Source of the DNA: an uncultured delta proteobacterium
Lineage (GTDB): Bacteria > Desulfobacterota > Binatia > DP-6
Assembly: GCA_963815115.1 (NCBI GenBank)
Contig: CAWFFN010000005.1
Location: 352,001-416,000 of the forward strand
Direction of reading: 5' to 3'
Length of the DNA: 64,000 nucleotides
Shown here: positions 29,916 through 44,825 of the stretch, in pieces
How positions within the stretch are numbered: the first letter of the stretch is position 1
Layout of the letters: each line of letters begins with the position of its first letter
Notes under the pieces: generated by a model
Databases searched by the model: none
What the model was told of the DNA's origin: nothing
The model's input: the letters and a program-made list of their open reading frames with translations, nothing else
Translations under genes and position numbers: made by a program

Positions 29916-31090
29916 GCCTTCGTGAAGACGACGACGGCGTTGTTGCCGCCGAAGGCGAACGAGTTGTTCATCACCGCACGGAGCGCGAGCGGGCGTGCGG
30001 CGTTCGGGACGCAGTCGACGGGGCAGTCCGGGTCGGGGGTCTGGTAGTTGATGGTGGGAGGGACGACTCCGTCCCGCAGCGCCAGGCAGCACACCACGGA
30101 CTCGATGGCGCTGGCCGCTCCCATGGAATGGCCGATCATCGACTTGACCGAGCTCACCGGGAGGCGGCCGGCCCGGTCGCCGAACACGGCGCGCAGCGCC
30201 ACGGCTTCGGCCCGGTCGTTCGCCGGTGTCCCGGTGCCGTGCGCGCTCACGTAGTCGATGTCGTCGGGCGCCAGCCCGGCGGCGCGGAGCGCGGCGCGCA
30301 TCGCCCGGATGGCCCCTGCGCCCGACGGATCGGGCGACGTCACGTGGAAGCCGTCCGCGCTCAGCCCGTACCCCTTCACCTCGGCGTAGGCCGGCGCTCC
30401 CCGCTCGGCGGCGTGCTCGCGCGACTCGAGCACGAGCATCCCCGCGCCCTCGCCGATCATCAGACCGCGGCGGTTCCGGTCGAACGGCTGGCAGTGCTCG
30501 GCGGCCAGAGAACGGAGGTTGTGGAAGTACGTGAACTCCGTCTGCGCGAAGACGTCGACCCCGCCGACGACCATCGCGTCCACCTCGCCTCGCCGGATGA
30601 GATCACACCCGGAGGCGAGGGCATGATTCCCGGAGGAGCACGCGTTCACGGACAGGAGATGGGGTCCGCCGGTGCCGAGCCGGTCCGCCAGCGCGCCCAG
30701 GATGGTGGAGAGGGGATAGGTGCGGGTGACCGCCGGCGTGAAGCCGTTCGCCTTGGTTGCCGGGTCGGCGCGCAGCGCCGCCTCGAAGGTCTTCAGATCG
30801 CCCCCGAGCGTGCCGACGACCACCCCCACACGCTCCGCGCCCGTGCGGCCCACGTCGAGCCCGGCGTCCCGGACCGCCTCGCTCGCGGCCGTGCCCGCCA
30901 GCTCGTGCGGGGTGGTCTCGAGCGCGAGCTCGCGGATGACGTGGCCCCGGTGCACCTTGTAGGCCGTCGTGTCGAAGTAGGGGATCTCGCCGGCGCCTTC
31001 CCGACCGGCGAGCATCGCCTTCCACGCCGCATCGGTACCGACTCCGACGGAGGTGACGAGGCCGACGCCGGTGACGACGACTCCTGACAT
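29912..31090 (-). CDS. fabF: Beta-ketoacyl-ACP synthase II-like, active (KS5)
   Basis: NACSSG, AHGTGT, KSMIGH, NSFAFGGNN. Confidence 0.9.
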   Translation of the reverse strand: MSGVVVTGVGLVTSVGVGTDAAWKAMLAGREGAGEIPYFDTTAYKVHRGHVIRELALETTPHELAGTAASEAVRDAGLDVGRTGAERVGVVVGTLGGDLKTFEAALRADPATKANGFTPAVTRTYPLSTILGALADRLGTGGPHLLSVNACSSGNHALASGCDLIRRGEVDAMVVGGVDVFAQTEFTYFHNLRSLAAEHCQPFDRNRRGLMIGEGAGMLVLESREHAAERGAPAYAEVKGYGLSADGFHVTSPDPSGAGAIRAMRAALRAAGLAPDDIDYVSAHGTGTPANDRAEAVALRAVFGDRAGRLPVSSVKSMIGHSMGAASAIESVVCCLALRDGVVPPTINYQTPDPDCPVDCVPNAARPLALRAVMNNSFAFGGNNAVVVFTKA

Positions 31091-31335
31091 CTAGGAGACC
31101 GACCCAAGACGGCGTCTCGGGTCGGATCCGGAGGCGAGCGCAGCGCGCTCGGTAGCACGCACGACCTGCATGTCGCGGCCGGCAACGCCGGCGCGACACT
31201 CTCGGCACGCCCGTGTCCGCCTCGTTTGCCGCGCCAGCTTTGCTGGCCGCGGCATGGCGGTCGCCCATGCCACCATACGTCTCATGTCCACTTTTCCTCT
31301 CCGACCCAAGACGCAGTCCTGGGTCGGCCTTCTAG
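31091..31335. mobile_element. MITE-like element bounded by CTAG with ~20-bp imperfect terminal inverted repeats
   Basis: CTAGGAGACCGACCCAAGAC vs reverse complement of the right end CTAGAAGGCCGACCCAGGAC (17/20); twin 12-bp hairpins at 31099-31125 and 31301-31327. Confidence 0.65.
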
Positions 31336-32774
31336 GCGGTGGCGTGCTCCTGCCGGTAGCGCCACAGCGCGCGGTCGTACTCGCCGGAGTCCCGCAGGTC
31401 CTTCGCGTTCTGGATGAGGTGCCGGAAGACCAGCTGCCAGTCGAGGTTCACGCGAAACGCGAAGTACGCCGCCGCCAGGTTGCCCAGCACCTCGCGAGCG
31501 CGGGCGAACCGCCGGCGCAGGACCTCCGTGGTGTAGAGGCGCTCGTAGAGGTGCTCGAGCCCCGCGATGAAGTCGTCCAGCGGCATGCTCTTCAGCAGGT
31601 AGAGGAGGTGATGCGCGGTGCCGTACTGCCAGTCCTGCGGGAAGCGGTTGCGGAACAGCCGCCCCTCGGCCTGCAGGCGCTCGTAGAAGCGCGTTCCCGG
31701 GGCCGGGGTCTCGATCCCGCAGGTCATGATGTCGATGTCGTTGTCGAGGACGAAGTCGGCGACGCGATCGAACACCTCGGGGCTCTCCGTGTCGGTCCCG
31801 AAGATCATCGTGCCCCAGACCGCCAGGCCGTGGTGGTGGATGCGCTCGATGGCGCGTCGATAGTCGCCCCCCGTGGCCTTCAGGTTGAACTTCTTGTTGA
31901 GGAGCTGGAGGGTCGCGGCCTCGAGCGACTCGAATCCGATCAGCATCCCCACGCTGCCGGACTGCGCCATCCAGTGCAGGACCTCGTCGTCCTCGGCGAT
32001 GTGGATGGACGTGAAGCCGAACCAGTTCTGGCGGATGCCGCGTTCCGCCATCTGGCGGTACAGCGACACGGTGCGCTCGTGCGACAGCTTGCCGTGGCCG
32101 TAGAAGTTCTCGTCGCTCCAGATCATGCCACGATACTGCCCCTTGAACTCCTCGAGCTCGTCGAGCAGGTCGTCGACGGGGCGTTCGCGATATTTCCGGC
32201 CCTGGAAGAGCGGGATGAAGCAGAACTCGCAGGTGTACGGGCACCCCGCCGACGCGATCGCCGCCGTGAAACGGTAGCCGTACTTGCGCCGCAGGAACTC
32301 CCGGTCGGGTCGGATGTCCCGGAGGATGGACAGATCGTGCAGCCCGCCGTCGTAGTGCGGCTGGAGCTCCCCGCGCTCGAAGTCCCGCACCAGCCTGGGC
32401 CACGCGGTGAACGCCTCTCGCGTGCAGATCGCATCCGCGAAGGGCCGCGCCTCCTCCGGGTAGGAGGTGGCGTGCCAGCCGCCGATGGCCACCGGGATCC
32501 CCTGCGCCCGGCACGCCGTGGCGATCTGGTAGGCGCGCGGCGCCTGGTGGCTCATCGCGGTGATCCCCACCAGATCCGCGCCGTCGAACGTGATGCCGGT
32601 CCCGTCCGCGGCGAGGGCCTGCTCCTTCATCTCGTCGATGATGTCGACCTCCCAGCCCGCGGGCGTGAGCGCCTTCAGGTAGGCGAGGCCGAGCGGCATC
32701 TGCGTCAGGACCGAGACGTTCTCCTCGCCGACGTTGCCCGGCGGATGCGGGCTGATGAGCACCAGGCGCTTCAT
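31332..32774 (-). CDS. Cobalamin-dependent radical SAM enzyme (RS3)
   Basis: QMPLGLAYLKALTP, VAIGGWHAT, GCPYTCEFC, DENFYG, IGFES; TGATG coupling to RS2. Confidence 0.9.
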   Translation of the reverse strand: MKRLVLISPHPPGNVGEENVSVLTQMPLGLAYLKALTPAGWEVDIIDEMKEQALAADGTGITFDGADLVGITAMSHQAPRAYQIATACRAQGIPVAIGGWHATSYPEEARPFADAICTREAFTAWPRLVRDFERGELQPHYDGGLHDLSILRDIRPDREFLRRKYGYRFTAAIASAGCPYTCEFCFIPLFQGRKYRERPVDDLLDELEEFKGQYRGMIWSDENFYGHGKLSHERTVSLYRQMAERGIRQNWFGFTSIHIAEDDEVLHWMAQSGSVGMLIGFESLEAATLQLLNKKFNLKATGGDYRRAIERIHHHGLAVWGTMIFGTDTESPEVFDRVADFVLDNDIDIMTCGIETPAPGTRFYERLQAEGRLFRNRFPQDWQYGTAHHLLYLLKSMPLDDFIAGLEHLYERLYTTEVLRRRFARAREVLGNLAAAYFAFRVNLDWQLVFRHLIQNAKDLRDSGEYDRALWRYRQEHATA

Positions 32775-34315
32775 CAGGCTTGCCCCACCGGCTGCTTGGC
32801 ATGCACGTTCTTGTAGATCGACATGAGCTTGGCCCGCTGCGGATGGTTGAAGTCCTCGAAGGCGAGCGGCACCGCGACCTGCGCCGGATTGGCCTCGTGG
32901 GGGTACGCACCCGAGTCGTAGAGCTTGTGTAGCTCCATCAGGTTGGCCTCGAAGACGACCTTCCAGTCGAGGTTGATGCGGTAGGCGAACATCGAGTTCA
33001 CGAGGTTGCCGGTGGCGGCGTAGGTCTGCTTGAAGCGCTCGCGCAGCTTCTCCTTGCCGTAGATGTTGTCGTACACGTAGGTGAGCCCCTCGATGAAGCG
33101 CTCGAGCGACATGTTCTTCAGCCGATGCACGAGGTGACCGGAGTTGTAGTAGTACCAGTCGTACGGGAAGTTGGTGCGGAAGATGCGCTGCTCGCTGCTC
33201 AGGCGGTCGAAGAGCTCGGTGCGCACCATGGGCGTGTAGATGCCGAAGGTGCAGACGTCCATTCCGGTCTCCCAGACGGCGTCGACGACCTGCTTGAAGG
33301 TGTCTTCCTTGTCGAAGTCGGTTCCGAAGATCACCGAGCTCCACACGATCAGCCCGTGCCGGTGGAGGTTGCCGAAGCAGTGCCGGTAGCTGTCGAGGAA
33401 CGAGGTCGAAGCCTTCTTGGCGATGCCGATGTTGACCGACTTGTGCATCTTCTTGAGCGTGTCGTAGTCGAGTGACTCGATGCCCATCAGGATGCCGAGG
33501 CAGCCGCTCTTCGCCATGTAGTCGAGCACGACGTCGTCCTGGGTGACGTTGAGCGACGTGAAGCCGAACCAGTTCTTCTTGAGATCGCGCTCCGCCCACC
33601 CCTTGAAGAGCTTGCGGCAGCGTTCCTGCGAGTCGGGCGTGTAGCCGTAGAAGTTGTCCTCCGCGAGCATGAGCCCGCGGTAGTCGGTGTGGGCGAGCTC
33701 GTTCCAGACGTCCTCCGGCGGGCGCTGGCGGTACTTGCGGCCCTGGATGAAGGGGACACAGCAGAAGTCGCACTTGAACGGGCAGCCGCGGGTCGTGATG
33801 ATCGACGAGTACTTGTAGCGGTACTTGTCGCGCAGCCACTCCCGGTCGGGGTGGATGTCCCTGAGCTCCTCGAGCGGCGTCGGGCCGCCGTGGTAGGTGG
33901 GCTGGAGACGCCCGCCATCGAAGTCGGCGAGCACCTGCGGCCACACCCGCTCGGCCTCGCCGATGACCACGCTGTTCACGTGGGCGCTCGCCTCCTCCGG
34001 GAGAATGGTCGCGTGGGCGCCGCCGGCGACCGTCGGCACGCCCGCCTTGCGACACGCCTCGGCGATCTCGTAGAGCCGCGGCACCTGGTAGGTCACGGCC
34101 GTGATCCCGACGAGGTCGGCATGGCCGAAGGTCAGGTTGCCCTGCGCGTCGACGGCCCGCTCGAGGGTCTCGTCGATGACGTCGACCTCCCATTCGTCGC
34201 GCGGCGTCAGCGCGGCGATGTAGGCGAGGTTGAGCGGCATCTGCACGATGACCGAGATGTTCTCCTCGCCGAAGTGCTTCTCGGGATAGGCGTTGATCAG
34301 AACGAGTCGCTTCAT
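32774..34315 (-). CDS. Cobalamin-dependent radical SAM enzyme (RS2)
   Basis: QMPLNLAYIAALTP, GGAHAT, GEAE, RGCPFKCDFC, EDNFYG, MGIES. Confidence 0.9.
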   Translation of the reverse strand: MKRLVLINAYPEKHFGEENISVIVQMPLNLAYIAALTPRDEWEVDVIDETLERAVDAQGNLTFGHADLVGITAVTYQVPRLYEIAEACRKAGVPTVAGGAHATILPEEASAHVNSVVIGEAERVWPQVLADFDGGRLQPTYHGGPTPLEELRDIHPDREWLRDKYRYKYSSIITTRGCPFKCDFCCVPFIQGRKYRQRPPEDVWNELAHTDYRGLMLAEDNFYGYTPDSQERCRKLFKGWAERDLKKNWFGFTSLNVTQDDVVLDYMAKSGCLGILMGIESLDYDTLKKMHKSVNIGIAKKASTSFLDSYRHCFGNLHRHGLIVWSSVIFGTDFDKEDTFKQVVDAVWETGMDVCTFGIYTPMVRTELFDRLSSEQRIFRTNFPYDWYYYNSGHLVHRLKNMSLERFIEGLTYVYDNIYGKEKLRERFKQTYAATGNLVNSMFAYRINLDWKVVFEANLMELHKLYDSGAYPHEANPAQVAVPLAFEDFNHPQRAKLMSIYKNVHAKQPVGQA

Positions 34316-34326
34316 CGCGTCTCCCT

Positions 34327-35775
34327 TCAGTGCGCCGTGGCGGCGGTGCTCGCGCTGCCCACGCTCACTCGCTCGGCGGGGTAGGCGCCCGAGTCGTAGA
34401 GGCCGTGCAGGTTGCGGAGAATCTGCTCGAACACGCGCTGCCAGTCCTGGCCGACGCGGTACGCGAACAGCGCGGTGCGCGGGTTGCCGGTCGCCTGGAG
34501 CGAGCGTCGGAACCGGGCGCGGAGCGCCTCCTTCGTGTACAGGTGATCGTAGACGTAGTGCATGCCCGTGATGAAGTCCTCGAGGGTCATCTTGTCGAGC
34601 TTGTACGTCACGTGATCGGTCCCGTAGTGGAACCAGTCGTTGGGGTAGTTGGTGCGGAAGACGCGGCCCTCGCCGAGAAGGCGCTTGTGCATCGGCGTAT
34701 TCGGCAGCGGGGTGCTGATGCCGTAGGTGAGCACGTCGAGGGAGTTCTCGAGAATGTAGTCGACCATGCGACGGAAGCAGTCCTTGTCGTCCCCGTCCGC
34801 GCCGAAGATGACCGAGCCCCACACGATCATGCCGTGATCGTGGATGTTCTTGATCGAGTCGGCCATGCGGTCGACTCCGAGGCGGAGGTTGACGTCCTTC
34901 ACCATCTTCTTGAGCACGTCCTCGCTGTTCGACTCCAGGCCGATGAGGAATCCGAAGCAGCCCGATTTCGCCATGGCGTCCAGCATCACCAGGTCCTGGC
35001 CGGTGGCGAGGGTCGAGAACCCGAACCAGTCCTTCCACATCTTGCGCTCGACCATGCCCTGGAAGAGCTGGCGCGCCCGCTCGTTGGCTCGCTTGCTGTA
35101 GCCGTAGAAGTTGTCCTCGGCGAGCATCAGGCCCTTGTACTTGGTCGCATCCATCTCGGCCCAGACGTCCTCCACCGGCCGCTCCCGGAACTGGCGCCCC
35201 TGGAACACGGGAACGCTGCAGAACTCGCAGCGGAACGGGCATCCCTTCGTGGTGACGATCGACGAGTACTTGTAGCCGTACTTCTCGCGGCAGAACTCCC
35301 GGTCCGGGTGGACCCGGCCGACGAGCTCGAGGGAAGGCAGCCCGCCGTCGTAGAGCGGCTGGAGGTCGCCGCGCGCGAAGTCGTCGAGGATCGACCGCCA
35401 CGTCAGCTCGGCCTCGCCGGTGCACACCGCGTCGGCGTGGCGTTGCGCCTCTTCGACCATCGCCGAGACGTGAATGCCGCCCATCACCACCTTCATGCCG
35501 CGCCGCCGGCATGCGTCCGCGATCTGGTACGCCCGCGGGCTCTGGTAGGTGAGCGACGTGATGGCGACGAGGTCCGCGTCGAAGATCGGCTCGCCGCGCT
35601 CGTCGAGCGCGAGCTCGATGGTCTCGTCGACCAGGTCACGCTCCCATTCGTCCTGCGGCGTCAGCGCGGCCAGGTAGGCGAGATTCAGCGGCATCTGCAC
35701 GATCACGGAGATGCTCTCCTCGCCGTGTCGCTCCGGCGGATGGGGGTTGACGAACACCACCTTGCGTCGATCCAT
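34327..35775 (-). CDS. Cobalamin-dependent radical SAM enzyme (RS1)
   Basis: QMPLNLAYLAALTP, GGIHVS, GEAE, KGCPFRCEFC, EDNFYG, IGLES; AGGAGG RBS. Confidence 0.9.
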   Translation of the reverse strand: MDRRKVVFVNPHPPERHGEESISVIVQMPLNLAYLAALTPQDEWERDLVDETIELALDERGEPIFDADLVAITSLTYQSPRAYQIADACRRRGMKVVMGGIHVSAMVEEAQRHADAVCTGEAELTWRSILDDFARGDLQPLYDGGLPSLELVGRVHPDREFCREKYGYKYSSIVTTKGCPFRCEFCSVPVFQGRQFRERPVEDVWAEMDATKYKGLMLAEDNFYGYSKRANERARQLFQGMVERKMWKDWFGFSTLATGQDLVMLDAMAKSGCFGFLIGLESNSEDVLKKMVKDVNLRLGVDRMADSIKNIHDHGMIVWGSVIFGADGDDKDCFRRMVDYILENSLDVLTYGISTPLPNTPMHKRLLGEGRVFRTNYPNDWFHYGTDHVTYKLDKMTLEDFITGMHYVYDHLYTKEALRARFRRSLQATGNPRTALFAYRVGQDWQRVFEQILRNLHGLYDSGAYPAERVSVGSASTAATAH

Positions 35776-35789
35776 GCGACACTCCCTCC

Positions 35790-37265
35790 TTACGCTAGCG
35801 CGGTCGTCCCGGCGTTGCCGTGGACTGCTCGCGGCGCCGCCGGCTCCCGCGCGGCGATCCGGTTCGCCACCCGCCAGCCGGAGGCGACCACCGCACACAC
35901 ACCGGGGCCCGGGATGGTCCAGTGACCGGTGAGGTACAGATTCTCGATCGGGGTCTCGTGCGCCAGGCGCCGCATCCCCGACTGCTCGGGAATCACGGCC
36001 CAGCCGTAGGGCGCACCACAGAAGTTGCTCGTCCGCTCCGCCCCGGTCGGGGGATGTGCGACCGTCATCACCTCCACGTGGCGCCGCAGCCCCGGAACGA
36101 AGTCCTCGATGCGGTCGAGCACGTCGCGCACCTTGGTCTCCTGCACGGCACGCCAGTCGCCCGCGGCCTCCTCCTCGGGCGCGAGCGAGGCGACGACGGT
36201 CATCGTGTGGTACCCCGGCGGGGCCATCCCGGGCTCGATCTGCGTCGGTGAAGAGACGTAGAGCCAGGGTCCGCCCAGCTCCTCGGAGAAGAAATAGAAG
36301 CCGCGCGCGAGGCGCTCGGGTTGGCAGCGCGCGCTCACCCCGAGGTACAGGAGCACGAACGGCGAGCTCGCGCGCAACGTCCGCAGTCGTTGCGCGTACG
36401 CCGGGTCCACGGCGCCGTCGAGCAGGCGGAAGAACGTCTGTGCCGGGTCGATGTTCGAGACCACGGCGCCGGCCGCGATCTCGCGTCCATCGGCGAGCCG
36501 GACGCCCGCGGCCCGCGTGCCGTCGAGCAGCACGTCGCGCACGGCCGTCGAGACCAGCAGGTCGCCTCCGCTGGCGACGAACCTCGCCGCGATGGCGTCG
36601 GCGAACGCCTGGGTGCCCCCGCGGGGATAGTAGGCGCCGTCGCGCCAGTAGTTGACGATCATCTGGCACATCCCGACCGCCGAGAGCTCCTGGGGAGGCG
36701 ATCCCAGGTAGCCCCACTGCCCCGACAACCCGAGCTTGAGGCGGGGATCGTCGAAGAAGGCGTCGAGCATCTCCGCGAACGTCGAGTCCTGGTAGCGGAT
36801 CAGCGTCGGGCTCTCCCGGCGCTCATCGAGCAGCGCGCGATAGAGCTTGACGATCTCGGCGAAGAACGCGTCGATGGCGCGACGCTCCCGGGGAAAGCGC
36901 TCCGCGAGCAACGCCGCGAAGGCATCCAGCCTCGTCGGAACCGGGAGCGACCAGGACGGGAAGACCAGCGTGTCCATGGGGTCGAGGCGCACGAAGTCGC
37001 ACTCGATCCCCAGAGCACGCAGGCAGCTGCCCACGATGCTCAGGCGGCCGCACCCGCTGATGTGGTGCACGGCGACGTCGAACGTGAATCCCTTCTGCGT
37101 GAACGACGAGCAGCAGCCGCCGGGCTGGGCGCTGCGCTCCACGATCAGCGTCCGCTTGCCCCGCTGCGCGAGCTGCGTGCCGCACACCAGCCCGCCGATA
37201 CCGCCGCCGACGACGACGGCGTCGTAGTCCCCCCGTACCTCGACTCGCGCGGTCCGGCCGTCCAT
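35790..37265 (-). CDS. Phytoene desaturase (CrtI)-like FAD oxidoreductase
   Basis: VVGGGIGG, ER..QPGG, GFTFDV, YYPRGG, NLYLTGHWT.PGPGV. Confidence 0.88.
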   Translation of the reverse strand: MDGRTARVEVRGDYDAVVVGGGIGGLVCGTQLAQRGKRTLIVERSAQPGGCCSSFTQKGFTFDVAVHHISGCGRLSIVGSCLRALGIECDFVRLDPMDTLVFPSWSLPVPTRLDAFAALLAERFPRERRAIDAFFAEIVKLYRALLDERRESPTLIRYQDSTFAEMLDAFFDDPRLKLGLSGQWGYLGSPPQELSAVGMCQMIVNYWRDGAYYPRGGTQAFADAIAARFVASGGDLLVSTAVRDVLLDGTRAAGVRLADGREIAAGAVVSNIDPAQTFFRLLDGAVDPAYAQRLRTLRASSPFVLLYLGVSARCQPERLARGFYFFSEELGGPWLYVSSPTQIEPGMAPPGYHTMTVVASLAPEEEAAGDWRAVQETKVRDVLDRIEDFVPGLRRHVEVMTVAHPPTGAERTSNFCGAPYGWAVIPEQSGMRRLAHETPIENLYLTGHWTIPGPGVCAVVASGWRVANRIAAREPAAPRAVHGNAGTTALA

Positions 37266-37269
37266 CGCG

Positions 37270-38496
37270 TCAGCCCGTCGGGCAGGCCGAGAGCAGCAGG
37301 GCGGCGCAGTGCCCGGAGTAGGAGGAGGCGGTGACGAGCGCGCGGGTCACCTCCATGCGCCGCGCCACGTTCGGGACGCAATCGACGGCGCACGCCTCGT
37401 CCGCGACCCGATGGTTGATCGTCGGAGGCACCACCTGCTCCGTCAACGCCAGCAGCGCCGCCGCGGCTTGGAGTGAGCCCGACGCGTCGAGACACTCCCC
37501 GCACATGGACTTGATGGCGCTCACCGGCGGGCACGACGCGTCGCCGTCGAAGGCGGCGCGCAGGGTGCTGGCCTCGAGCCGGTCTCCCCCGGGGGTGGAA
37601 TTGGCGCCGCTGAAGACGCACCAGCCGTCCGGGGACGCGGGCGGCGTGCGCCCGAGCGCAGCGCGGATGACCCGACGGCCGTTCGCCACCGGATCCCCGC
37701 CACGCGGCCGGAAGCCGTTCCCGTATCCGGTGACCTCGCCGTAGATCCGGGCGCACCGCTCACGGGCACGCGACAGCGGCTCGAGGAACAGCAGACAGCT
37801 GCCCTCGCCCAGCACGACGCCGTCCCGGCGACGGTCGAACGGGGCGCACAGTCCGCTGCCGGAAAGCGCGCCCGTCCCCGCGAAGCCCCGGTAGACGTCT
37901 TCGCCGAGACCGAACACGCCCCCCGCCAACATGGCTCCCGCCCGACGCAGCCGGAGGAAGTCTGTGGCGTACCCGAGCGCGTCGAGGCCGCTCGTCTCGC
38001 CCGTGGCGATCGTCGCGTTCGGGCCCGTCACCCCGAGGAGAATGGAGACGCGGCTCGCCGGCGCGTTCAGCACCGTGTTGGGAAACTCCATGGGGTTCAC
38101 GTACGCCGGGCCTTCTCGCAGGGCCTCCGTGTCGAACGCGGCGATGCTGCCGATGCTCCCGTAGGTCGAGCCCACGGCGATGCCGGTCTGGTCATCCCGC
38201 ACGGGAGCCTCGCCGCCCTGCAGGACGCCGGCGTCCTCGAGCGCGAGCTTGGCCGCGCACGCGAGCAGCAACGTGGTCCGATCGAAGTGCCGGATGCCCT
38301 TGGTCCCGATGAAGGGCGCCGGCGAGAACTCGGCGATCTCCCCGGCCAGCCGGCTCCGGCCGTTCCCGGGGTCGAAGAGGGAGAGGGGACGAAGACCGGA
38401 GGCACCTGCCGCGAGGCTGCGCCAGAACGCCTCCCGCCCTGCGCCCAGGGCGGAGACGACCCCAAGACCGGTCACGACGATACGTTCCACGATCAC
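37270..38496 (-). CDS. Ketosynthase-like protein with Cys->Glu substitution (CLF/decarboxylase-like, KS4)
   Basis: ATGETSG at the Cys site, SGANST at the HGTGT site, KSMCGE at the second His; GTGA overlap with KS3. Confidence 0.85.
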   Translation of the reverse strand: MIVERIVVTGLGVVSALGAGREAFWRSLAAGASGLRPLSLFDPGNGRSRLAGEIAEFSPAPFIGTKGIRHFDRTTLLLACAAKLALEDAGVLQGGEAPVRDDQTGIAVGSTYGSIGSIAAFDTEALREGPAYVNPMEFPNTVLNAPASRVSILLGVTGPNATIATGETSGLDALGYATDFLRLRRAGAMLAGGVFGLGEDVYRGFAGTGALSGSGLCAPFDRRRDGVVLGEGSCLLFLEPLSRARERCARIYGEVTGYGNGFRPRGGDPVANGRRVIRAALGRTPPASPDGWCVFSGANSTPGGDRLEASTLRAAFDGDASCPPVSAIKSMCGECLDASGSLQAAAALLALTEQVVPPTINHRVADEACAVDCVPNVARRMEVTRALVTASSYSGHCAALLLSACPTG

Positions 38497-39731
38497 CCCT
38501 CGAACCGGCGCAGGACCAGGCAGCTGTTGTTCCCCCCGAAGGCGATCGCGTTGTTGAGCGCGACGGTGAGCGACCGCCTGCGCGCTGCGTTCGGCACGTA
38601 GTCGAGATCGCAATCCGGATCGGGCGTCTCGTAGTTCATGGTCGGCGGTACGACCCCGTGGCGCAGCGCCAGCACCGAGGTGATCGCCTCGATCGCACTC
38701 GCCGCGCCCATCGTGTGACCGATCATCGACTTGGTCGAGCTCACGCAGAGCTCGTAGGCGTGCCGCCCGAAGACCCGCTTGATGGCGCGGGTCTCCACCT
38801 TGTCGTTCACGGGCGTGCCCGTGCCGTGGGCGTTGATGTAGTCGACCTCGGCGGGCGCGATGCGCGCCGACTCGAGCGCCAGCCCGATCGCACGGCTGAT
38901 GCCGTCCCCCTCCGGGTCCGGCGCCGTCATGTGGTGGCCGTCGGCGCTGATGGCGTATCCCAGCATCTCCGCGAGAATCGGCGCGCCCCGGGTGAGGGCC
39001 CCGTCGAGGGACTCCAGCACGACGATGCCGGCGCCCTCGCCCACCAGGATGCCGCGCCTCCCGCGATCGAACGGCTGGCACCGCTCCGGCGCCACGGAGC
39101 CCAGCCGGGCGAACCCGGTGAACGCCACCCGGGAGAACGGGTCCGTCCCGCCTGCCAGCATCGCGTCCGCCCTGCCGAATCTGATGGCATCGAAGGCCCA
39201 GCCGATGCTGTAGTTCCCCGCCGCGCAGGCGGTGGGAATCATCACGTTCGGACCCGAGAGGCCGAGCCAGTGCGCGATGTGGGCGGGAATCATGGCGGCG
39301 GGATGGTGGCGCAACGTCTGCCACGGGATTGCGTCCTCGCCGTCGGAGACCCTCGCCTGGTCCGCCTGTTCGAGAATCTGGATCTCGCCGCACGTGGTCC
39401 CGACGGACACCCCGACCGTGGCCTCCTCGTTGCCGCCACCGCCGAGCCCGGCATCGGCAAGGGCCAGGTGCGTCGCGGCCACGGCCAGCTGCGAAGCGCG
39501 CCCCATCCCCGAGGGCGGCGGCGCCCCGACGATCCCTTCGAAGTCGAAGTCGTGGACCTCGCAGCCCTGGTGGACCTTGTAGCGCGAAGTGTCGAAGCGC
39601 TCGATCTCCGTCACCCCGGAGGCGCCGGACAGCGCGGCCGGCCAGAAGCGCTCGCGCCCGATCCCGATGGGGGTGACCATGCCCACACCGGTTATCACCA
39701 CGCGGCGGGCGCGCTGGCCCCCGTCGGTCAT
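38493..39731 (-). CDS. fabF: Beta-ketoacyl-ACP synthase II-like, active (KS3)
   Basis: TACAAG, AHGTGT, KSMIGH, AFGGNN. Confidence 0.9.
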   Translation of the reverse strand: MTDGGQRARRVVITGVGMVTPIGIGRERFWPAALSGASGVTEIERFDTSRYKVHQGCEVHDFDFEGIVGAPPPSGMGRASQLAVAATHLALADAGLGGGGNEEATVGVSVGTTCGEIQILEQADQARVSDGEDAIPWQTLRHHPAAMIPAHIAHWLGLSGPNVMIPTACAAGNYSIGWAFDAIRFGRADAMLAGGTDPFSRVAFTGFARLGSVAPERCQPFDRGRRGILVGEGAGIVVLESLDGALTRGAPILAEMLGYAISADGHHMTAPDPEGDGISRAIGLALESARIAPAEVDYINAHGTGTPVNDKVETRAIKRVFGRHAYELCVSSTKSMIGHTMGAASAIEAITSVLALRHGVVPPTMNYETPDPDCDLDYVPNAARRRSLTVALNNAIAFGGNNSCLVLRRFEG

Positions 39732-40195
39732 CCTGGTCGATGCTCCCGGAGCGTATCGAGCCCGCGGCGATCCACCGCCGCGAACGTCAGCTTCGCCCTG
39801 GCCACCGGCTCGCCCTCGACCAGCGCCACCCCCCGCACGATGGCGGCGGTGGAGATGACCTTCTCCGCCACGACGTCGAAGAGCAGCTGATCCCCCGGGG
39901 TGACGGGCTTCAGGAACCGCGCCTCGACCGCACCGAGCAGGAAGACCTTGTCCGCATGTTGCGGCTGGTTACCGGCTCGGAAGAGCAACAGCCCGCATTG
40001 GGCGAGGGCTTCGACCATCACGGTGCCCGGCATCAGCGCAAGATCCACGAAGTGTCCCGGGAAGAAGTACTCGTTGCCGGTGACGTTCTTGAGGCAACGG
40101 ATGCGTTTGCCTTCCTCCAGCTCGAGAACGCGGTCCACGAACAGAAACGGGTAGCGATGGGGGATCAGGCGCGTGATCTCGTCGAACGAGATCAC
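39728..40195 (-). CDS. fabZ: 3-hydroxyacyl-ACP dehydratase
   Basis: IPHRYPFLFVDRV, KNVTGNE.FFPGHF, PG..MVEALAQ, FLKPVTPGD. Confidence 0.92.
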   Translation of the reverse strand: MISFDEITRLIPHRYPFLFVDRVLELEEGKRIRCLKNVTGNEYFFPGHFVDLALMPGTVMVEALAQCGLLLFRAGNQPQHADKVFLLGAVEARFLKPVTPGDQLLFDVVAEKVISTAAIVRGVALVEGEPVARAKLTFAAVDRRGLDTLREHRPG

Positions 40196-40467
40196 AGAGC
40201 GGCCTCCAGCTTCCCTTGCTCCCGCAGCATCTCCTTCACGAGCGTGATGGCAGCGCTGAGCGTCGTCACATCGACGATGCGTTCCTCCGGCACCTCGATA
40301 CGATACTTGCGCTCGAGGGTGGCAACGATCTCGAGCGCGAGCAGCGAGTCGAGCCCGACCTCCTCGAAGAGATGGCTGTCACGCTGCGCCCACAGCTCCT
40401 CCTCCGGCTTCTCGGAGACCTCGGCCACGACCTCGGTCACGGCGCGCTCCACGTTGTCTGCGTACAT
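40192..40467 (-). CDS. Acyl carrier protein (ACP1)
   Basis: Acidic ~91-aa protein, LFEEVGLDSLLALEIV (phosphopantetheine Ser); GGAGG RBS. Confidence 0.9.
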   Translation of the reverse strand: MYADNVERAVTEVVAEVSEKPEEELWAQRDSHLFEEVGLDSLLALEIVATLERKYRIEVPEERIVDVTTLSAAITLVKEMLREQGKLEAAL

Positions 40468-40604: not shown

Positions 40605-40680
40605 CCGTTAACCCGCGATCCACGCATGGTCAAGCAGTTCTCGATTTTCTGGAACGACCCCAAACTTGGAGTGTCTCTAA
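40605..40680 (-). promoter_or_regulatory. Putative internal promoter (TTGACC-N17-TAACGG) with upstream imperfect palindromes
   Basis: TTGGAG-TGT-CTCTAA (40666-40680) and a weaker copy (40649-40663) lie just upstream of the -35-like box, ahead of ACP1. Confidence 0.35.
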
Positions 40681-41312
40681 GAACGTGCCCCCGTCCGCCG
40701 GCGCTGCGGGCGGCGATCGGTCGTGTCGATCGCGGACGGGGCGACACCCGACAGGAAGATGGCCGCACCACGGTGCAGGCGCTCGGTGAGCGGCTGACCG
40801 CCGTCGCCGTGCAGCCATCGCAAGATGATGGCGTAGTAGGTCCCGATGAAGATGTCCGCCAGCTCGTGCGGATCGTATTCGGTGCTGACCTCGCCCCGGC
40901 GCTGCCCCTCGTGCAAGAGCGCCGCGCTCAGGTCGGAAAGGATGCGTTCGGCACGCACGTTGCCGAAGTTCAGAGCGCTCCGGGTGAACAGCGTGCGGTA
41001 GAACCGCTTGTCGGCCTGCAGCCCCCGCCCCATCGCCTCGAGCAGGCGCCTCACCTTCTCCGCCGTGGGGGCGTCCCGCCGCGCCTCGTGCTCGAGCATC
41101 TCCTGGTATCGCCCCACGGTGTCCTCGGCAGCCTGCTGCAGGATGGCGTCCTTGCTCGGGAAATAGTTGAAGAACGTCGCCTGGCTGATCTCCAGCTGTC
41201 CGATGATGTCGTCGATCGTCACCTCGTCGAACCCACGCTCCATGAAGAGCTGGATCGCGTTGGCGAGGATCTTACCGCGCAGCTTGTTCTTCTTCTCGGC
41301 CCGTAAGCCCAT
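40677..41312 (-). CDS. TetR/AcrR family regulator embedded in the cluster
   Basis: LRAEKKNKLRGKIL..AIQLF..GFDEVTIDDI..ISQATFFNYFPSKD. Confidence 0.92.
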   Translation of the reverse strand: MGLRAEKKNKLRGKILANAIQLFMERGFDEVTIDDIIGQLEISQATFFNYFPSKDAILQQAAEDTVGRYQEMLEHEARRDAPTAEKVRRLLEAMGRGLQADKRFYRTLFTRSALNFGNVRAERILSDLSAALLHEGQRRGEVSTEYDPHELADIFIGTYYAIILRWLHGDGGQPLTERLHRGAAIFLSGVAPSAIDTTDRRPQRRRTGARS

Positions 41313-41354: not shown

Positions 41355-42599
41355 TCACGGCTCGAACCGTCGCACGACGAGCGTCGAGTTGTTTCCTCCG
41401 AAGGCGAAGGAGTTGCTCAGTGCCGTCCGGATCTCCTGGCTGCGGCTCGCGTTCGGCACGTAGTCGAGGTCGCAGTCGGGATCGGGCACGTCGTAGTGCA
41501 GGGTCGGGGGAACCACCCCTCTCCGCACCGCGAGACAGCAGATGGCCGCCTCGAGCGCAGCCGATGCCCCGGCGGTGTGGCCCACGATGGACTTCGTCGA
41601 GCTCACCGGGATCGCGTGGGCGCGCGCGCCGCACACCCGTTTGATGGCGAGGGTCTCGATGTGGTCGTTCAGGTACGTCCCGGTCCCGTGGGCATTGATG
41701 TAGTCGACCTCGTCCACGCCGATTCCCGCGTCGTCCAGCGCCCGCTGCATCGCCAGCGCCATGCCGTGGCCGTCCGGATCGGGCGACGTGATGTGGTGCG
41801 CGTCGCAGCTGGCACCGAACCCGGCGATCTCCGCAAGCGGCTCCGCCCCGCGGGCGACGGCGGAGCGGAGCGTCTCGAGGACCAGGAAGGCGGCCCCGAT
41901 GCCCGGGGTGAACCCCATGCGCTCCTTGGTGAACGGCCTGCACGGCTGCGGATCGATCACCCCGAGGCGATATGCCCCGACCAGCCCGGATGCCTGGATG
42001 GCCTCCCACCCTCCCGCCAGCATGCAGTCGGCCTGCCCGGTGCGCAGCAGGTCGACCGCGTGCCCGAGGGCGAAGTTGCTCGAGGCGCACGCCAGGGAGA
42101 ACACCATGCTCGGACCACGCAGCCCGAAGCGGCGGGTCAGCAGCCGTGCCACCGCGGGAAACGGATAGGCGGCGAGCGTCCCGGCGGGCAGGTCGGGGAG
42201 CCCCCCGGCGCGGCGGCGGCGCACGAGCTGCTCGAGGAGGCCGAGCTGGCCGAAGTTGCTCCCCAGCGAGAGCCCCACGGCCGCCCCGTCGCGTTCGAGA
42301 CCGGCGTCCCGCAGCGCCTCTCGGGCGGCGATCACGGGTTGGGCCGCGAAGAGCTCACCATCGGCGAGCGCCACGTCGTGCGCGGACGCGTAGGCGTCGA
42401 TCTCCTCGATCGCGGGTGCCCCCACGTATCCGGTGTACTCGCCCGGGTCGAAGCCGTAGCGCGCGAACGTGGCCGCGAGCTCCGCCGCCGGTCGCAAGCT
42501 CGTCCTGCCCTCCACGATGGCGTTCCAGAGCGGCGCCTGCCCGATCCCGGCGGGCGAGACGATGCCCATTCCCGTCACGATGATGGGTTGGCCGTCCAT
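41355..42599 (-). CDS. fabF: Beta-ketoacyl-ACP synthase II-like, active (KS1)
   Basis: LACASS, AHGTGT, KSIVGH, NSFAFGGNN. Confidence 0.88.
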   Translation of the reverse strand: MDGQPIIVTGMGIVSPAGIGQAPLWNAIVEGRTSLRPAAELAATFARYGFDPGEYTGYVGAPAIEEIDAYASAHDVALADGELFAAQPVIAAREALRDAGLERDGAAVGLSLGSNFGQLGLLEQLVRRRRAGGLPDLPAGTLAAYPFPAVARLLTRRFGLRGPSMVFSLACASSNFALGHAVDLLRTGQADCMLAGGWEAIQASGLVGAYRLGVIDPQPCRPFTKERMGFTPGIGAAFLVLETLRSAVARGAEPLAEIAGFGASCDAHHITSPDPDGHGMALAMQRALDDAGIGVDEVDYINAHGTGTYLNDHIETLAIKRVCGARAHAIPVSSTKSIVGHTAGASAALEAAICCLAVRRGVVPPTLHYDVPDPDCDLDYVPNASRSQEIRTALSNSFAFGGNNSTLVVRRFEP

Positions 42600-42609
42600 C
42601 CGGCTCCTG

Positions 42610-43344
42610 TCATTCGAGAAGATCGACGAGCTTCTTCTTCACGAGCGGGCGCGAGACCAGCGAGGCGAACAGCTTCGCCTCACGCTCCGCGTCCACCTCG
42701 TTCACCAGCTCCAGGGCGGCGAGGGCCGCAGCCGGCTCCGCGCGCGCGATCGCGCCTGCCAGCCTGCGCGTCTCCTCGGCCACCTGATCCGGTGCGACGC
42801 ACCGGTTGACGAGCCCGATGCGATGAGCCTCCGGCGCGCTGACCGTCTGCCCGCTCAGGATCATCTCGAGCGCCTTCGCGCGTCCGACGAGCCGCGCCAG
42901 GCGGCCGATGCCGCCCAGAGCCGGCACGAAGCCGAGCGACAGCTCGGGAAACCCGAAGCGCGCCCGGCTTCCGCACACGCGCAGGTGGCAGGCGAGCGCG
43001 ATCTCGAGTCCCCCGCCGAGGCAGAGCCCGTTGACGGCCGCGATGAACGGCTTCGGGAGGCCGAAGAACTCGTCGAGCAGCGCGCGGCCGGCCCGGGCCT
43101 GTCGCTCCGCCTCGTCGGCGGACGGAAAGCGTGCGATCGCACTCAGGTCGCCGCCGACGGAGAACACCCGGGGCAGGCCGGTGACGATGACGACGCGCAC
43201 GGTGCTCGCGGCGACGATCGGCCGCGCCTCCTCGAGCTGCGCGAAGAGCGCCGGGGTCAGCGCATTCACGGGCGGGTTGTCGAGCCGCACGACGGCCGTG
43301 CTGCCCTCGACCACCGTCTCGACCAGCCTCCGCGGATCAGCCAT
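42610..43344 (-). CDS. Enoyl-CoA hydratase (crotonase)
   Basis: DNPPVNAL, FSVGGDL, CLGGGLE, PELSLG. Confidence 0.88.
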   Translation of the reverse strand: MADPRRLVETVVEGSTAVVRLDNPPVNALTPALFAQLEEARPIVAASTVRVVIVTGLPRVFSVGGDLSAIARFPSADEAERQARAGRALLDEFFGLPKPFIAAVNGLCLGGGLEIALACHLRVCGSRARFGFPELSLGFVPALGGIGRLARLVGRAKALEMILSGQTVSAPEAHRIGLVNRCVAPDQVAEETRRLAGAIARAEPAAALAALELVNEVDAEREAKLFASLVSRPLVKKKLVDLLE

Positions 43345-44506: not shown

Positions 44507-44825
44507 TCTCGACCTCGCCCCGGAGGATCCGCGTGATCAGGTCGATCAGCTCTCCCAGCGTCTCCACCGGGTTGCGGCGCCCGAAGCGCGCCAGCTTCCG
44601 GGTGTCGACCGTGATCTCGTACTGTCCCTGGAGCTCCTCGAACAGGGCGAGGAAGAGCAGCGAATCGAGCCCGAGATCGTCGAACAGGTGCGCCTCGTCG
44701 CGCATCTCGGCGATGTCGCGTTCCAGCTCGTCGGCGAGGAAGCGCTTCACCTGCGCGCTCACCTGCGCACGCTCCGCGGAGCGCGCGGGGCCGCCGACGT
44801 ACGTCGAGCTGCTCTCGTCCGACAT
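44499..44825 (-). CDS. Acyl carrier protein (ACP2)
   Basis: LFDDLGLDSLLFL motif; AGGAGG RBS before ATG 44825. Confidence 0.85.
   Translation of the reverse strand: MSDESSSTYVGGPARSAERAQVSAQVKRFLADELERDIAEMRDEAHLFDDLGLDSLLFLALFEELQGQYEITVDTRKLARFGRRNPVETLGELIDLITRILRGEVEID

What the first reader, a model, noticed from the sequence alone, without database searches (positions are those of the whole stretch)
31332..40467. Core gene order ACP-FabZ-FabF-FabF*-CrtI-like-B12 rSAM mirrors the anammox ladderane candidate operon
Seen: a contiguous, tightly packed run of ACP1, FabZ, active KS3, altered KS4, CrtI-like flavoprotein and rSAMs. Recalled, needs verification: the Kuenenia kuste3603-3608 locus has this same six-gene order. 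Inference: this is a homologous core in a distant lineage, with the single rSAM expanded to three. It could be a more tractable model for the unsolved ladderane chemistry.
Basis: partly seen in the sequence, partly recalled or inferred. Interest (0 to 1): 0.85.

Follow-up and report, generated by a model that had tools for sequence, protein, structure and literature searches.

The report
Anammox "ladderane" gene set outside anammox
A soil-type bacterium that is not an anammox organism carries, in one operon, full counterparts of the two gene sets thought to make the unique ladderane lipids of anammox bacteria, so those genes are not exclusive to anammox bacteria and can now be studied by comparison.

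Summary
On the minus strand, 40467→31332 encodes ACP, FabZ, an active ketosynthase (KS3), a triad-less ketosynthase (KS4), a CrtI-like flavoprotein and three B12 radical SAM enzymes, with gaps of -4 to +14 nt.

The homology claim also holds. All six proteins are reciprocal best hits of anammox "Cluster I" (KustE3603-3608) at 44-62% identity, in the same order. Published hallmark residues are kept.

- The three rSAMs are not one gene expanded. rSAM3, KS5, KS6, an enoyl-CoA hydratase and an SDR match a second anammox locus (kuste2803-2805 type). The window therefore joins two anammox loci, and only rSAM2 is extra.
- The host is not more tractable. It is an uncultured, 70% GC genome, probably Candidatus Binatia, with no hydrazine synthase alpha domain found.

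Close copies occur in only 2 of 4 other genomes of its genus. Related clusters occur in Blastocatellia, Acidobacteriota, Spirochaetales and a divergent Planctomycetota MAG.

The product is unknown.

Earlier notes of this scan describe only partial Cluster I-like modules on other DNA, such as Omnitrophota and Syntrophales.

The parts
40192..40467 (-). ACP1, counterpart of amxACP (kuste3603 type)
   Evidence: Pfam PP-binding 1.1e-11. DSL serine motif at residue 40. PDB best hits 7auf, 9s5i_E and 7qv0_D at E 4e-26 to 2e-21, against 8e-07 for the next ACP. Forward best hit lies next to the Cluster I FabZ in 7 of 7 Brocadia genomes, 91-93 bits against at most 33. It is the only reverse hit, 81-99 bits.
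39728..40195 (-). FabZ, counterpart of amxFabZ (kuste3604 type)
   Evidence: Pfam FabA 3.2e-25. PDB best hits are the five amxFabZ entries, 155-165 bits against 118 for the best canonical FabZ. Forward best hit lies in Cluster I, 152-160 bits against at most 42. Reverse 153-162 against 80-84. Leu sits at the amxFabZ Ile69 position, where canonical FabZ has Gly.
38493..39731 (-). KS3, active ketosynthase, counterpart of amxFabF2 (kuste3605 type)
   Evidence: Cys-His-His kept, with the same flanking motifs as the anammox orthologues. PDB 9s5h_B 544 bits against 348 for the next hit. Forward 523-536 bits against at most 388. Reverse 480-491 against 313-324.
37270..38496 (-). KS4, triad-less chain-length-factor-like partner, counterpart of amxFabFmut (kuste3606 type)
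   Evidence: Glu/Gly/Glu in place of Cys/His/His. The 'FPNTV' tunnel segment holding the published Phe135 and Val139 is conserved. PDB 9s5h_C 359 bits against 216. Forward 362-390 bits against at most 214. Reverse 339-366 against 214-231.
35790..37265 (-). CrtI-like FAD oxidoreductase, counterpart of kuste3607
   Evidence: Pfam Amino_oxidase 1.9e-26. In one search the named hits at 47-50% identity are all Brocadiales or Planctomycetes, and the next tier drops to 37-39% and then to 33% or less. Forward best hit lies between the Cluster I rSAM and KS4, 487-506 bits against at most 193, in 7 of 7 Brocadia genomes. Reverse 429-455 against 133-147.
34327..35775 (-). rSAM1, B12-binding radical SAM, counterpart of the Cluster I rSAM (kuste3608 type)
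   Evidence: Pfam. CPFRCEFC at residue 179. Forward best hit in Cluster I, 637-678 bits against 526-539 for the second-locus rSAM. Groups beside the anammox Cluster I clade (SH-aLRT 97).
32774..34315 (-). rSAM2, extra B12 radical SAM paralogue with no anammox counterpart
   Evidence: 54% identical to rSAM1 and 47% to rSAM3. Forms its own branch with L002, position unresolved.
31332..32774 (-). rSAM3, counterpart of the rSAM of the second anammox locus (kuste2803 type)
   Evidence: The second-locus rSAM matches rSAM3 best, 56-59% and 592-609 bits, against 491-514 for rSAM1 and rSAM2. Clade support 99.
29912..31090 (-). KS5, active ketosynthase, counterpart of the second-locus KS (kuste2804 type)
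   Evidence: Cys-His-His kept. In Brocadia and Scalinduaceae the best hit lies beside the second-locus rSAM, 446-473 bits against 363-378 for the Cluster I KS. In the Kuenenia MAG, where the second locus sits at a contig start, the best hit is the Cluster I KS at 383 bits. Clade support 99.
28695..29915 (-). KS6, triad-less partner, counterpart of the second-locus non-canonical KS (kuste2805 type)
   Evidence: Phe/Ser/Glu at the triad positions. The anammox second locus has Phe/Asn/Glu, which matches Kuste2805 in Table 2 of PMC2649909. 39-41% identity, collinear. Joins the Spirochaetales/Planctomycetota-PNC KS6-type copies at SH-aLRT 95 and the anammox second-locus partner at 90.
27937..28692 (-). 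ECHb, enoyl-CoA hydratase/isomerase family
   Evidence: Pfam ECH_1 1.3e-59. 43-44% identical to the gene that follows the KS pair in the second anammox locus.
27194..27940 (-). SDR (FabG/FabI-type short-chain dehydrogenase); start probably GTG at 27940, alternative ATG at 28045
   Evidence: Pfam adh_short_C2 1.7e-66 and KR 1.5e-22. 58% identical to the SDR in the Scalinduaceae second locus. Candidate starts.
25628..27181 (-). rSAM4, divergent B12 radical SAM with DUF4070
   Evidence: Pfam. 30-34% identical to rSAM1-3. Best anammox matches only 37-40%. 62-65% identical to two copies in the Spirochaetales MAG locus L064.
23374..25311 (-). alpha/beta hydrolase of 645 aa, possible release enzyme (inference)
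   Evidence: Pfam Abhydrolase_1 3.2e-21. Lies 316 nt downstream of rSAM4 on the same strand.
40677..41312 (-). TetR-family regulator upstream of ACP1
   Evidence: Pfam TetR_N 2.6e-13. 209-nt gap to ACP1. Same position in L002.
41355..47532 (-). Accessory upstream module: PaaK-like ligase (46069-47532; start uncertain, candidate ATGs at 47436 and 47397), KS1 (44842-46065, triad-less Ala/Gly/Asp), ACP0 (44499-44825), 3-hydroxyacyl-CoA dehydrogenase (43337-44506), ECHa (42610-43344), KS2 (41355-42599, active)
   Evidence: Pfam. Triads. No specific anammox counterpart for the ligase or KS1. KS1 falls in the CLF-like clade and KS2 in the active clade.
47433..49078 (-). 116-aa ORF with no Pfam match (47433-47783) and a myo-inositol-1-phosphate-synthase-like gene (47789-49078)
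   Evidence: Pfam. The MIPS-like protein is 64% and the ligase 63% identical to neighbours of the L064 cluster. MIPS-like has no match in Brocadia or Kuenenia and 37% in Scalinduaceae.

Best explanation
This is a dedicated, carrier-protein-based lipid-tail pathway. It is orthologous to two anammox loci, Cluster I (kuste3603-3608) and the kuste2803-2805 locus, and here they sit joined in one operon of a non-anammox bacterium. Proposed working, step by step. [quoted passage not shown] (2) The SDR reduces the 3-keto group, and the short-chain FabZ dehydrates the product while it is bound to ACP1. (3) The CrtI-like flavoprotein desaturates or isomerises the ACP-bound chain. (4) The B12 radical SAM enzymes make radical C-C bonds (ring closure or C-alkylation) on that chain: rSAM1, and perhaps rSAM2, at the KS3/KS4 stage, and rSAM3 at the stage of the second heterodimer, KS5/KS6, which extends the modified chain. 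(5) The accessory module (ligase, ACP0, KS2/KS1, dehydrogenase, hydratase) supplies or further extends a starter unit, and the alpha/beta hydrolase releases the product. The product is an unusual, probably carbocyclic or branched, fatty acyl chain made by the same chemistry as in anammox bacteria, whatever that chemistry proves to be. What is shown here: orthology, gene order and conserved key residues. What is shown elsewhere, for the anammox proteins only: heterodimer formation, malonyl-ACP decarboxylation and the C6-C8 preference. What is inferred: every step in this organism, all rSAM and flavoprotein chemistry, and the product.
For: Gene order and domains. Collinearity: all 11 anammox-named loci laid out show ACP-FabZ-KS-KS*-CrtI-rSAM at 44-62% identity to the window. 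Reciprocal best hits for 6 of 6 core proteins: reverse, forward. PDB: the best matches are the anammox proteins, by wide margins. Hallmarks: KS3 triad intact and KS4 triad lost; the KS4 tunnel segment with the published Phe and Val is conserved; FabZ has Leu at the Ile69 position. Second locus: rSAM3-KS5-KS6-ECHb-SDR is collinear with anammox loci L085 and L086, and the Phe at the Cys position matches Kuste2805. Trees place rSAM1, rSAM3, KS3, KS4, KS5 and KS6 each with its anammox counterpart. The biochemistry of the anammox homologues comes from bioRxiv 10.64898/2026.05.19.726425 (Introduction, sequence-comparison, substrate-preference and Conclusions sections read) and PMC10139942 (passages). 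Native to this genome: GC3 is 0.94-0.96 in the rSAMs, the contig is 1.8 Mb at 70% GC, and the whole cluster recurs in L002 at 73-95% identity.
Against: No experiment links any Cluster I protein to a product, even in anammox bacteria. Pfam named no dedicated enoyl reductase among the 40 window ORFs scanned, but the SDR family hit (PF13561) covers both FabG and FabI types, so the reductive steps are uncertain. An ACP synthase gene, kuste2802, is listed in the Kuenenia kuste2802-2805 cluster, and none of the 40 ORFs has such a domain. KS4 differs from most anammox orthologues at two triad positions (Glu/Gly against Val/Asn). The accessory genes have no anammox counterpart, so the final product may differ. 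The trees are quick or FastTree runs with flagged compositional bias and long branches.
Confidence: 0.72

Rival explanations
1. The cluster makes true ladderanes (concatenated cyclobutane fatty acids) in this non-anammox bacterium.
For: Every gene of both anammox loci has a counterpart here except the ACP synthase, and key residues are kept. [quoted passage not shown] The field regards Cluster I as central to ladderane production.
Against: The papers read describe ladderanes as found only in anammox bacteria. The host shows no hydrazine synthase alpha domain, so the proposed role in the anammoxosome membrane does not apply. The cluster has an extra rSAM and a third KS pair. Carriers are unevenly spread: 2 of 4 other genomes of the genus.
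Confidence: 0.2
2. The shared module does not make ladderanes in any organism. In anammox bacteria and here it makes another ACP-bound product, such as a short modified acyl chain, a polyene or a methyl-branched lipid, and the ladderane rings are made by genes elsewhere.
For: The complete module occurs in lineages labelled Blastocatellia, Acidobacteriota and Spirochaetales and in this Binatia-type genome. That removes the 'unique to ladderane producers' argument. There is no experimental link to ladderanes. Expression of the 34 candidate genes in E. coli was reported without ladderane formation, and kuste3607 lacked CrtI activity (PMC4790861, passages). B12 rSAMs are most often methylases, as the family names show.
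Against: Cluster I is present in every anammox-named locus examined and is reported as highly expressed. No alternative ladderane candidate is known from the papers read.
Confidence: 0.3
3. It is an aryl-polyene, flexirubin-like or other type II polyketide pigment cluster that resembles the anammox genes only superficially.
For: It has KS/CLF pairs, a PaaK-like ligase with a weak FlxY match (133 bits, cut-off 520) and no clear enoyl reductase. FabZ and KS3 give sub-threshold matches to the cispentacin proteins AmcE and AmcF (105 of 140 bits and 255 of 325 bits).
Against: All of those matches fall below the curated cut-offs. The core proteins' best hits in the PDB, in 5.8 billion proteins and in whole genomes are the anammox proteins.
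Confidence: 0.06
4. It is an artefact: an anammox contig mis-binned or mis-assembled into this genome.
For: Mis-binning does occur in this data set. L003, labelled Thermodesulfobacteriota, nests inside Scalindua on a 0.003 end branch.
Against: The window is 65-74% GC throughout, and GC3 of the cluster genes is 0.83-0.96. It lies inside a 1.8 Mb contig of a genome that is 100% complete with 2.98% contamination. Two further genomes of the genus carry it. Identity to anammox proteins is only 44-62%.
Confidence: 0.01

Closest known systems
Anammox 'Cluster I', KustE3603-3608 (amxACP, amxFabZ, amxFabF2, amxFabFmut, phytoene-dehydrogenase-like, B12 radical SAM)
   Same: It has the same six genes in the same order. 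All six are reciprocal best hits at 44-62% identity. The active and triad-less KS are paired, FabZ has a bulky tunnel residue, and the chain-length-factor tunnel Phe and Val are conserved.
   Different: The host is not an anammox bacterium. KS4 has Glu/Gly/Glu rather than Val/Asn/Glu, and FabZ has Leu rather than Ile. The cluster is followed directly by more rSAMs and a second KS pair and preceded by a TetR gene and a third KS module. The proteins branch outside the anammox clade.
Anammox kuste2802-2805 locus (ACP synthase, B12 radical SAM, FabF, non-canonical FabB)
   Same: The order rSAM, active KS, triad-less KS with Phe at the Cys position is the same, followed by an ECH and (in Scalinduaceae) an SDR, at 39-59% identity.
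   Different: In the Brocadia genome this locus lies about 210 kb from Cluster I, and in Scalinduaceae about 1.1 Mb away (coordinates). Here it abuts Cluster I. No ACP synthase gene was found in the window.
'Ladderane-type' clusters of Desulfotalea, Geobacter and Pelobacter (PMC2649909) and antiSMASH 'ladderane' calls in non-anammox phyla (PMC9902471)
   Same: They share the general make-up: FabF paralogues, SAM enzymes and a phytoene-dehydrogenase-like gene, sometimes with a phenylacetyl-CoA-ligase-like gene.
   Different: Those are looser resemblances. Desulfobacterales relatives of the flavoprotein are only 32% identical, and other families of the host's own class have 33-40% homologues. 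Here the match is orthologue by orthologue. I did not examine the Desulfotalea loci themselves.
Type II PKS KS/CLF systems that build reduced or cyclic chains (ishigamide Iga11/Iga12; cispentacin AmcF/AmcG/AmcE)
   Same: They use an active KS plus an inactive partner on a dedicated ACP with a FabZ-like enzyme. The ishigamide KS (6kxd) scores 327 bits with KS3. AmcF and AmcE give sub-threshold matches.
   Different: The matches fall below the family cut-offs. Whether those systems lack a B12 rSAM or a CrtI-like enzyme is my recollection and was not checked.

Membership tests
Anammox Cluster I (kuste3603-3608 type) | Six genes in the order ACP, FabZ, FabF2, FabFmut, PDH-like, B12 rSAM | tested here: met
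Anammox Cluster I (kuste3603-3608 type) | Each protein is a reciprocal best hit of the Cluster I protein rather than of housekeeping FAS II | tested here: met
   Reverse search against the 6.9 Mb own genome. Forward searches: KS3, KS4 (40), rSAM1 (41) and FabZ (42) in 3 anammox genomes; CrtI-like (89) and ACP1 (90) in 7 Brocadia genomes.
Anammox Cluster I (kuste3603-3608 type) | FabF2 keeps Cys-His-His and FabFmut has lost all three | tested here: met
   KS3 has C/H/H and KS4 has E/G/E. Anammox copies have V/N/E, V/C/E or E/N/D.
Anammox Cluster I (kuste3603-3608 type) | amxFabZ has a bulky apolar residue (Ile69) in the tunnel where canonical FabZ has Gly | tested here: met
   Leu at that position. 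The feature is described in PMC10139942.
Anammox Cluster I (kuste3603-3608 type) | Chain-length-factor tunnel residues Phe135 and Val139 of amxFabFmut | tested here: met
   'FPNTV' is conserved. The residues are named.
Anammox Cluster I (kuste3603-3608 type) | amxACP has a long 3-10 helix | not tested
   No structure was predicted. Sequence match to amxACP entries is E 4e-26 against 8e-07 for the next ACP.
Anammox Cluster I (kuste3603-3608 type) | Host is an anammox bacterium | tested here: not met
   PF18582 (HZS_alpha) has 0 matches in the own genome, which is 100% complete. The control found it in 2 of 3 anammox genomes. RecA's only organism-named relatives are Candidatus Binatia.
Anammox Cluster I (kuste3603-3608 type) | Host produces ladderane lipids | not testable with these tools
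   This needs lipid analysis.
Anammox kuste2802-2805 locus | B12 rSAM, then an active KS, then a KS with Phe/Asn/Glu at the triad positions | tested here: met
   the window has F/S/E and anammox has F/N/E.
Anammox kuste2802-2805 locus | Adjacent ACP synthase (kuste2802) | tested here: not met
   None of the 40 window ORFs scanned with Pfam has an ACP synthase domain.
NCBIfam TIGR04072 'rSAM_ladder_B12' | Score of at least 360 bits | tested here: not met
   The window rSAMs score 51-73 bits. The anammox Cluster I and second-locus rSAMs also fail at 80-88 bits, so this model describes another enzyme and does not define Cluster I.
Aryl polyene / flexirubin and cispentacin type II PKS-like systems | Curated equivalog scores for FlxY, AmcE and AmcF | tested here: not met
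   Scores of 133 of 520, 105 of 140 and 255 of 325 bits.

The most novel reading that the evidence does not exclude
A genus of uncultured, non-anammox Binatia-type bacteria, and a few Acidobacteriota and Spirochaetales MAGs, make ladderane or ladderane-like concatenated-ring lipids from a single joined operon. That operon would define the full gene set as Cluster I plus the kuste2803-2805 genes. Ladderanes would then be neither an exclusive anammox biomarker nor tied to the anammoxosome.
Probability: 0.2. Interest if true: 0.95.

Novelty: new variant of a known kind. Interest (0 to 1): 0.72.

Why it matters
How ladderanes are made is a long-standing open problem. There is no in vitro ladderane synthesis and no genetic access to any producer. 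Part of the case for Cluster I rests on its being unique to ladderane producers. This window shows three things.
1. The complete set exists outside anammox bacteria.
2. The two anammox loci, which lie about 210 kb apart in the Brocadia genome and about 1.1 Mb apart in Scalinduaceae, sit side by side here and in two other lineages. That argues that they work together and names a concrete gene set of about 11 genes to reconstitute.
3. Which residues and genes are conserved across phyla can now be read off directly.

Either outcome is informative. If these bacteria make ladderane-like lipids, the biomarker and the biology need revising. If they do not, the consensus candidate cluster needs rethinking.

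Tried and rejected
- The PaaK-like ligase, KS1 and the MIPS-like gene have no specific counterpart in the three anammox genomes searched. rSAM4 reaches only 37-40% identity there. The idea that the window also unites a third anammox cluster (kuste3335-3352) is therefore not supported with these queries.
- TIGR04072 'rSAM_ladder_B12' looked like a membership test. It was rejected as one because the anammox Cluster I rSAMs also fail it.
- The sigma-70 and terminator scan of 30900-41500 gave 0 promoter-like sites and 1 terminator-like site, fewer than in the shuffles, so it says nothing.
- RNA evidence is weak. One soil metatranscriptome, X1, held 0.06 of the sampled words. Its contigs cover parts of the cluster at 90-97% identity, for example 1041 nt of rSAM1 with 70 differences. 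These are contigs of relatives in an RNA library that may contain DNA, so this is only a weak hint of transcription and supports no claim about habitat.
- PDB entries 9S5H and 9S5I are not named in the main text of the 2026 preprint. That they are its heterodimer is inferred from their chain composition (two KS chains plus an ACP) and from the ranking.
- Searches for hydrazine synthase in the L076 genome, and for the KS5-type locus in the L065 and L066 genomes, could not be run. The anammox status of L076, and whether the second locus is present in L065 and L066, stay open.
- I did not predict a structure or a complex. The KS3/KS4 heterodimer is inferred from homology alone.

Full report
**What is there**

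The window is 65-74% GC, so I called genes from third-position GC and from Pfam. A single minus-strand array runs from about 49078 down to about 22081:

- MIPS-like gene, a 116-aa ORF, a PaaK-like ligase, KS1, ACP0, a 3-hydroxyacyl-CoA dehydrogenase, ECHa, KS2 and a TetR regulator;
- then ACP1, FabZ, KS3, KS4, the CrtI-like flavoprotein, rSAM1, rSAM2 and rSAM3;
- then KS5, KS6, ECHb, an SDR, rSAM4, an alpha/beta hydrolase and a gene with a weak, sub-threshold match to a copper monooxygenase C-terminal domain (22.5 bits against a cut-off of 23).

The stretch named in the finding, 31332-40467, is exactly ACP1 to rSAM3, with gaps of -4 to +14 nt. Each rSAM has one CxxxCxxC motif and a B12-binding domain.

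**Is it the anammox cluster?**

The recalled gene order of kuste3603-3608 is correct. Several lines of evidence support homology.

- *Flavoprotein search.* The best 120 of 125 significant hits are listed. They fall into tiers: the window's own lineage at 81-91% (three shorter fragments at 85-88% rank lower), unnamed metagenome proteins at 50-60%, and a large block at 44-50% whose named members are all Brocadiales, Brocadia, Brocadiaceae or Planctomycetes. Below that, identity drops to 37-39% and then to 33% or less (a Desulfobacterales protein at 32%).
- *Species-representative genomes.* A pattern-seeded scan kept 80 loci, and 71 of them carry Planctomycetota-type titles. The scan sees only proteins that hold one of two conserved peptide patterns, so more distant relatives are missed.
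- *Gene order.* I laid out 17 loci with tblastn. All 11 anammox-named loci show ACP-FabZ-KS-KS*-CrtI-rSAM in that order. Identities to the window are ACP 45-51%, FabZ 48-56%, KS3 54-58%, KS4 45-48%, flavoprotein 44-50% and rSAM 58-62%.
- *Reverse best hits.* Brocadia, Kuenenia and Scalinduaceae proteins were searched against the 6.9 Mb own genome. Every best hit falls in the window core, well ahead of the next-best copies. For Brocadia, for example, KS3 scores 491 against 318 bits, FabZ 162 against 83 and the flavoprotein 455 against 146.
- *Forward best hits.* KS3, KS4, rSAM1 and FabZ hit Cluster I first in 3 of 3 anammox genomes. The flavoprotein and ACP1 do so in 7 of 7 Brocadia genomes.
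- *PDB.* The top matches are the deposited anammox proteins. FabZ scores 155-165 bits against 118 for the best canonical FabZ (entry identities confirmed). ACP1 matches at E 4e-26 to 2e-21 against 8e-07 for the next ACP. KS3 scores 544 against 348 bits and KS4 359 against 216.
- *Last protein search.* KS4's nearest named relatives outside its own lineage are again all Planctomycetes, Brocadiales or Scalindua, at 46-51%; the nearest unnamed ones reach 54%.

**Hallmark residues**

- KS3 keeps Cys-His-His, with the same flanking motifs as the amxFabF2 orthologues.
- KS4 has Glu/Gly/Glu at those positions. Brocadia, Kuenenia and Jettenia have Val/Asn/Glu, as Rattray et al. listed for Kuste3606. 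Scalindua has Val/Cys/Glu, and two deep Brocadiia MAGs have Glu/Asn/Asp.
- The helix-loop-helix segment of KS4, which holds the Phe135 and Val139 that the 2026 preprint shows tuning chain length, is almost unchanged.
- FabZ has Leu where amxFabZ has the tunnel-blocking Ile69 and canonical FabZ has Gly.

Anammox genomes have a second locus. It runs B12 rSAM, active KS, triad-less KS, ECH and, in Scalinduaceae, an SDR. This is collinear with the window's rSAM3-KS5-KS6-ECHb-SDR.

- Its rSAM matches rSAM3 best: 56-59% and 592-609 bits, against 491-514 bits for rSAM1 and rSAM2.
- Its dead KS has Phe/Asn/Glu, the residues published for Kuste2805. The window's KS6 has Phe/Ser/Glu.
- Published tables give kuste2802-2805 as ACP synthase, SAM radical enzyme, FabF and non-canonical FabB.

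The trees agree.
- In the rSAM tree, rSAM1 sits beside the anammox Cluster I clade (SH-aLRT 97), and rSAM3 sits with the second-locus rSAM (99). rSAM2 is a separate, unresolved branch.
- In the KS tree, KS3 (92), KS4 (99) and KS5 (99) each join their anammox counterparts. KS6 joins the KS6-type clade at 95 and its anammox counterpart at 90.
- KS2 (active) and KS1 (Ala/Gly/Asp) form a third pair that has no anammox member among the loci examined.

So the window joins two anammox loci, and only one rSAM is additional. The same joined layout, core followed by rSAM, KS5 and KS6, occurs in the Spirochaetales MAG L064 and the divergent Planctomycetota MAG L076. I infer that the two loci work together. 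Whether the joined or the split form is ancestral remains open.

**The host and the distribution**

- The own genome is 100% complete with 2.98% contamination. It has no HZS_alpha match. The control found that domain in 2 of 3 anammox genomes.
- RecA's only organism-named relatives are Candidatus Binatia, at 84-85%. The closest loci are titled 'uncultured delta proteobacterium'.
- In a sample of 401 genomes of the host's class (G000 plus 400), flavoprotein copies at 86-89% occur only in its genus: 2 of 4 other genomes. None was found in the 20 genomes of other genera of its family. Twenty further genomes of the class have only 33-40% homologues.
- In a sample of 401 genomes of the phylum, only the own genome has a close copy.
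- In the flavoprotein tree, rooted on those distant homologues, the window plus L002 form one of three unresolved branches. The others are L064+L065+L076 and L066 plus all Brocadiia. L003, L008 and L070 nest inside Scalindua, so they are probably mis-binned or unlabelled anammox contigs.
- GC3 of 0.94-0.96 in the rSAMs, together with the position outside the anammox clade, argues against a recent transfer from living anammox bacteria.

**Function**

What is known comes from the anammox proteins.
- The two FabF homologues form a KS/CLF-like heterodimer that decarboxylates malonyl-amxACP and favours C6-C8 probes.
- kuste3607 does not replace CrtI in a lycopene assay.

I carry these properties over to KS3/KS4, FabZ, ACP1 and the flavoprotein by orthology. 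The rSAM chemistry is unknown everywhere, and the product is therefore unknown. I consider it most likely a modified acyl chain made by the same chemistry as in anammox bacteria (confidence 0.72). That it is a true ladderane is possible but unproven (0.2). The alternative, that the shared module never makes ladderanes at all, gains weight from this finding (0.3).

**Novelty**

Generic 'ladderane' calls in non-anammox phyla are already in print, as is looser synteny with Desulfotalea and Geobacter. I found no report of a complete orthologue set outside anammox bacteria.
- The searches were 'ladderane' with 'non-anammox', 'Binatota' with 'ladderane', and the kuste/amx gene names. I read passages or sections only, and supplements were closed.
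- The 2026 preprint still calls the cluster unique to ladderane producers.
- Earlier notes of this scan describe partial modules in Omnitrophota and Syntrophales. I did not check them.

**Limits**

- The trees are quick or FastTree runs, with compositional bias and long branches flagged.
- The locus search was pattern-limited.
- Three follow-up genome searches could not be run.
- No structure, complex or experiment was done.

Noticed in passing
window 31091-31331 (gap between rSAM3 and KS5): Two near-identical 27-nt hairpins bracket this 241-nt gap. Each has a 12-bp stem and folds at -22 to -24 kcal/mol. Their 12-nt arm occurs only 6 times in the genome: 2 here and 4 at C9:78358-78620, in a similar paired layout. 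They could be a small repeated element or an RNA-processing or stabilising signal.
   Followed up: partly
own genome, G000:C8:155090-156442: Another B12 radical SAM gene scores 342 bits against NCBIfam TIGR04072 'lipid biosynthesis B12-binding/radical SAM protein' (cut-off 360). Further rSAM matches lie nearby, at C8:146943-147968 and C8:176905-177684. This may be a second, different lipid rSAM locus in the same genome.
   Followed up: no
window 49171-51812 (+ strand), 51833-54280 (- strand): An ABC ATPase, an MlaC-like lipid-binding protein and an ABC-2 permease are transcribed divergently from the cluster. A GDSL-type lipase and an MBOAT acyltransferase follow. This lipid-trafficking and acylation context recalls the VacJ/MlaA-like gene noted in an anammox lipid cluster.
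   Followed up: no
own genome, C5:343577-344617 (about 8 kb before the window start): A fifth B12 radical SAM gene near the cluster matches the anammox Cluster I rSAM at 35-36%.
   Followed up: no
L036 (= G478:C1:722952-724135): In this same-genus genome the flavoprotein gene matches in two pieces (residues 86-348 and 349-480), and several cluster genes are covered with gaps. This suggests frameshifts, from either assembly error or decay.
   Followed up: no
L003, L008, L070, L077: Record titles disagree with gene content. The 'Thermodesulfobacteriota' locus L003 and two 'uncultured bacterium' loci nest inside Scalindua. An 'Actinomycetota' contig, L077, carries an 88%-identical fragment of the window's flavoprotein. 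These are probably binning errors.
   Followed up: partly
L064 (Spirochaetales MAG): The MIPS-like and PaaK-like genes next to this cluster are 64% and 63% identical to the window's, closer than the core genes at 37-59%. This points to a shared accessory module among the non-anammox clusters.
   Followed up: no
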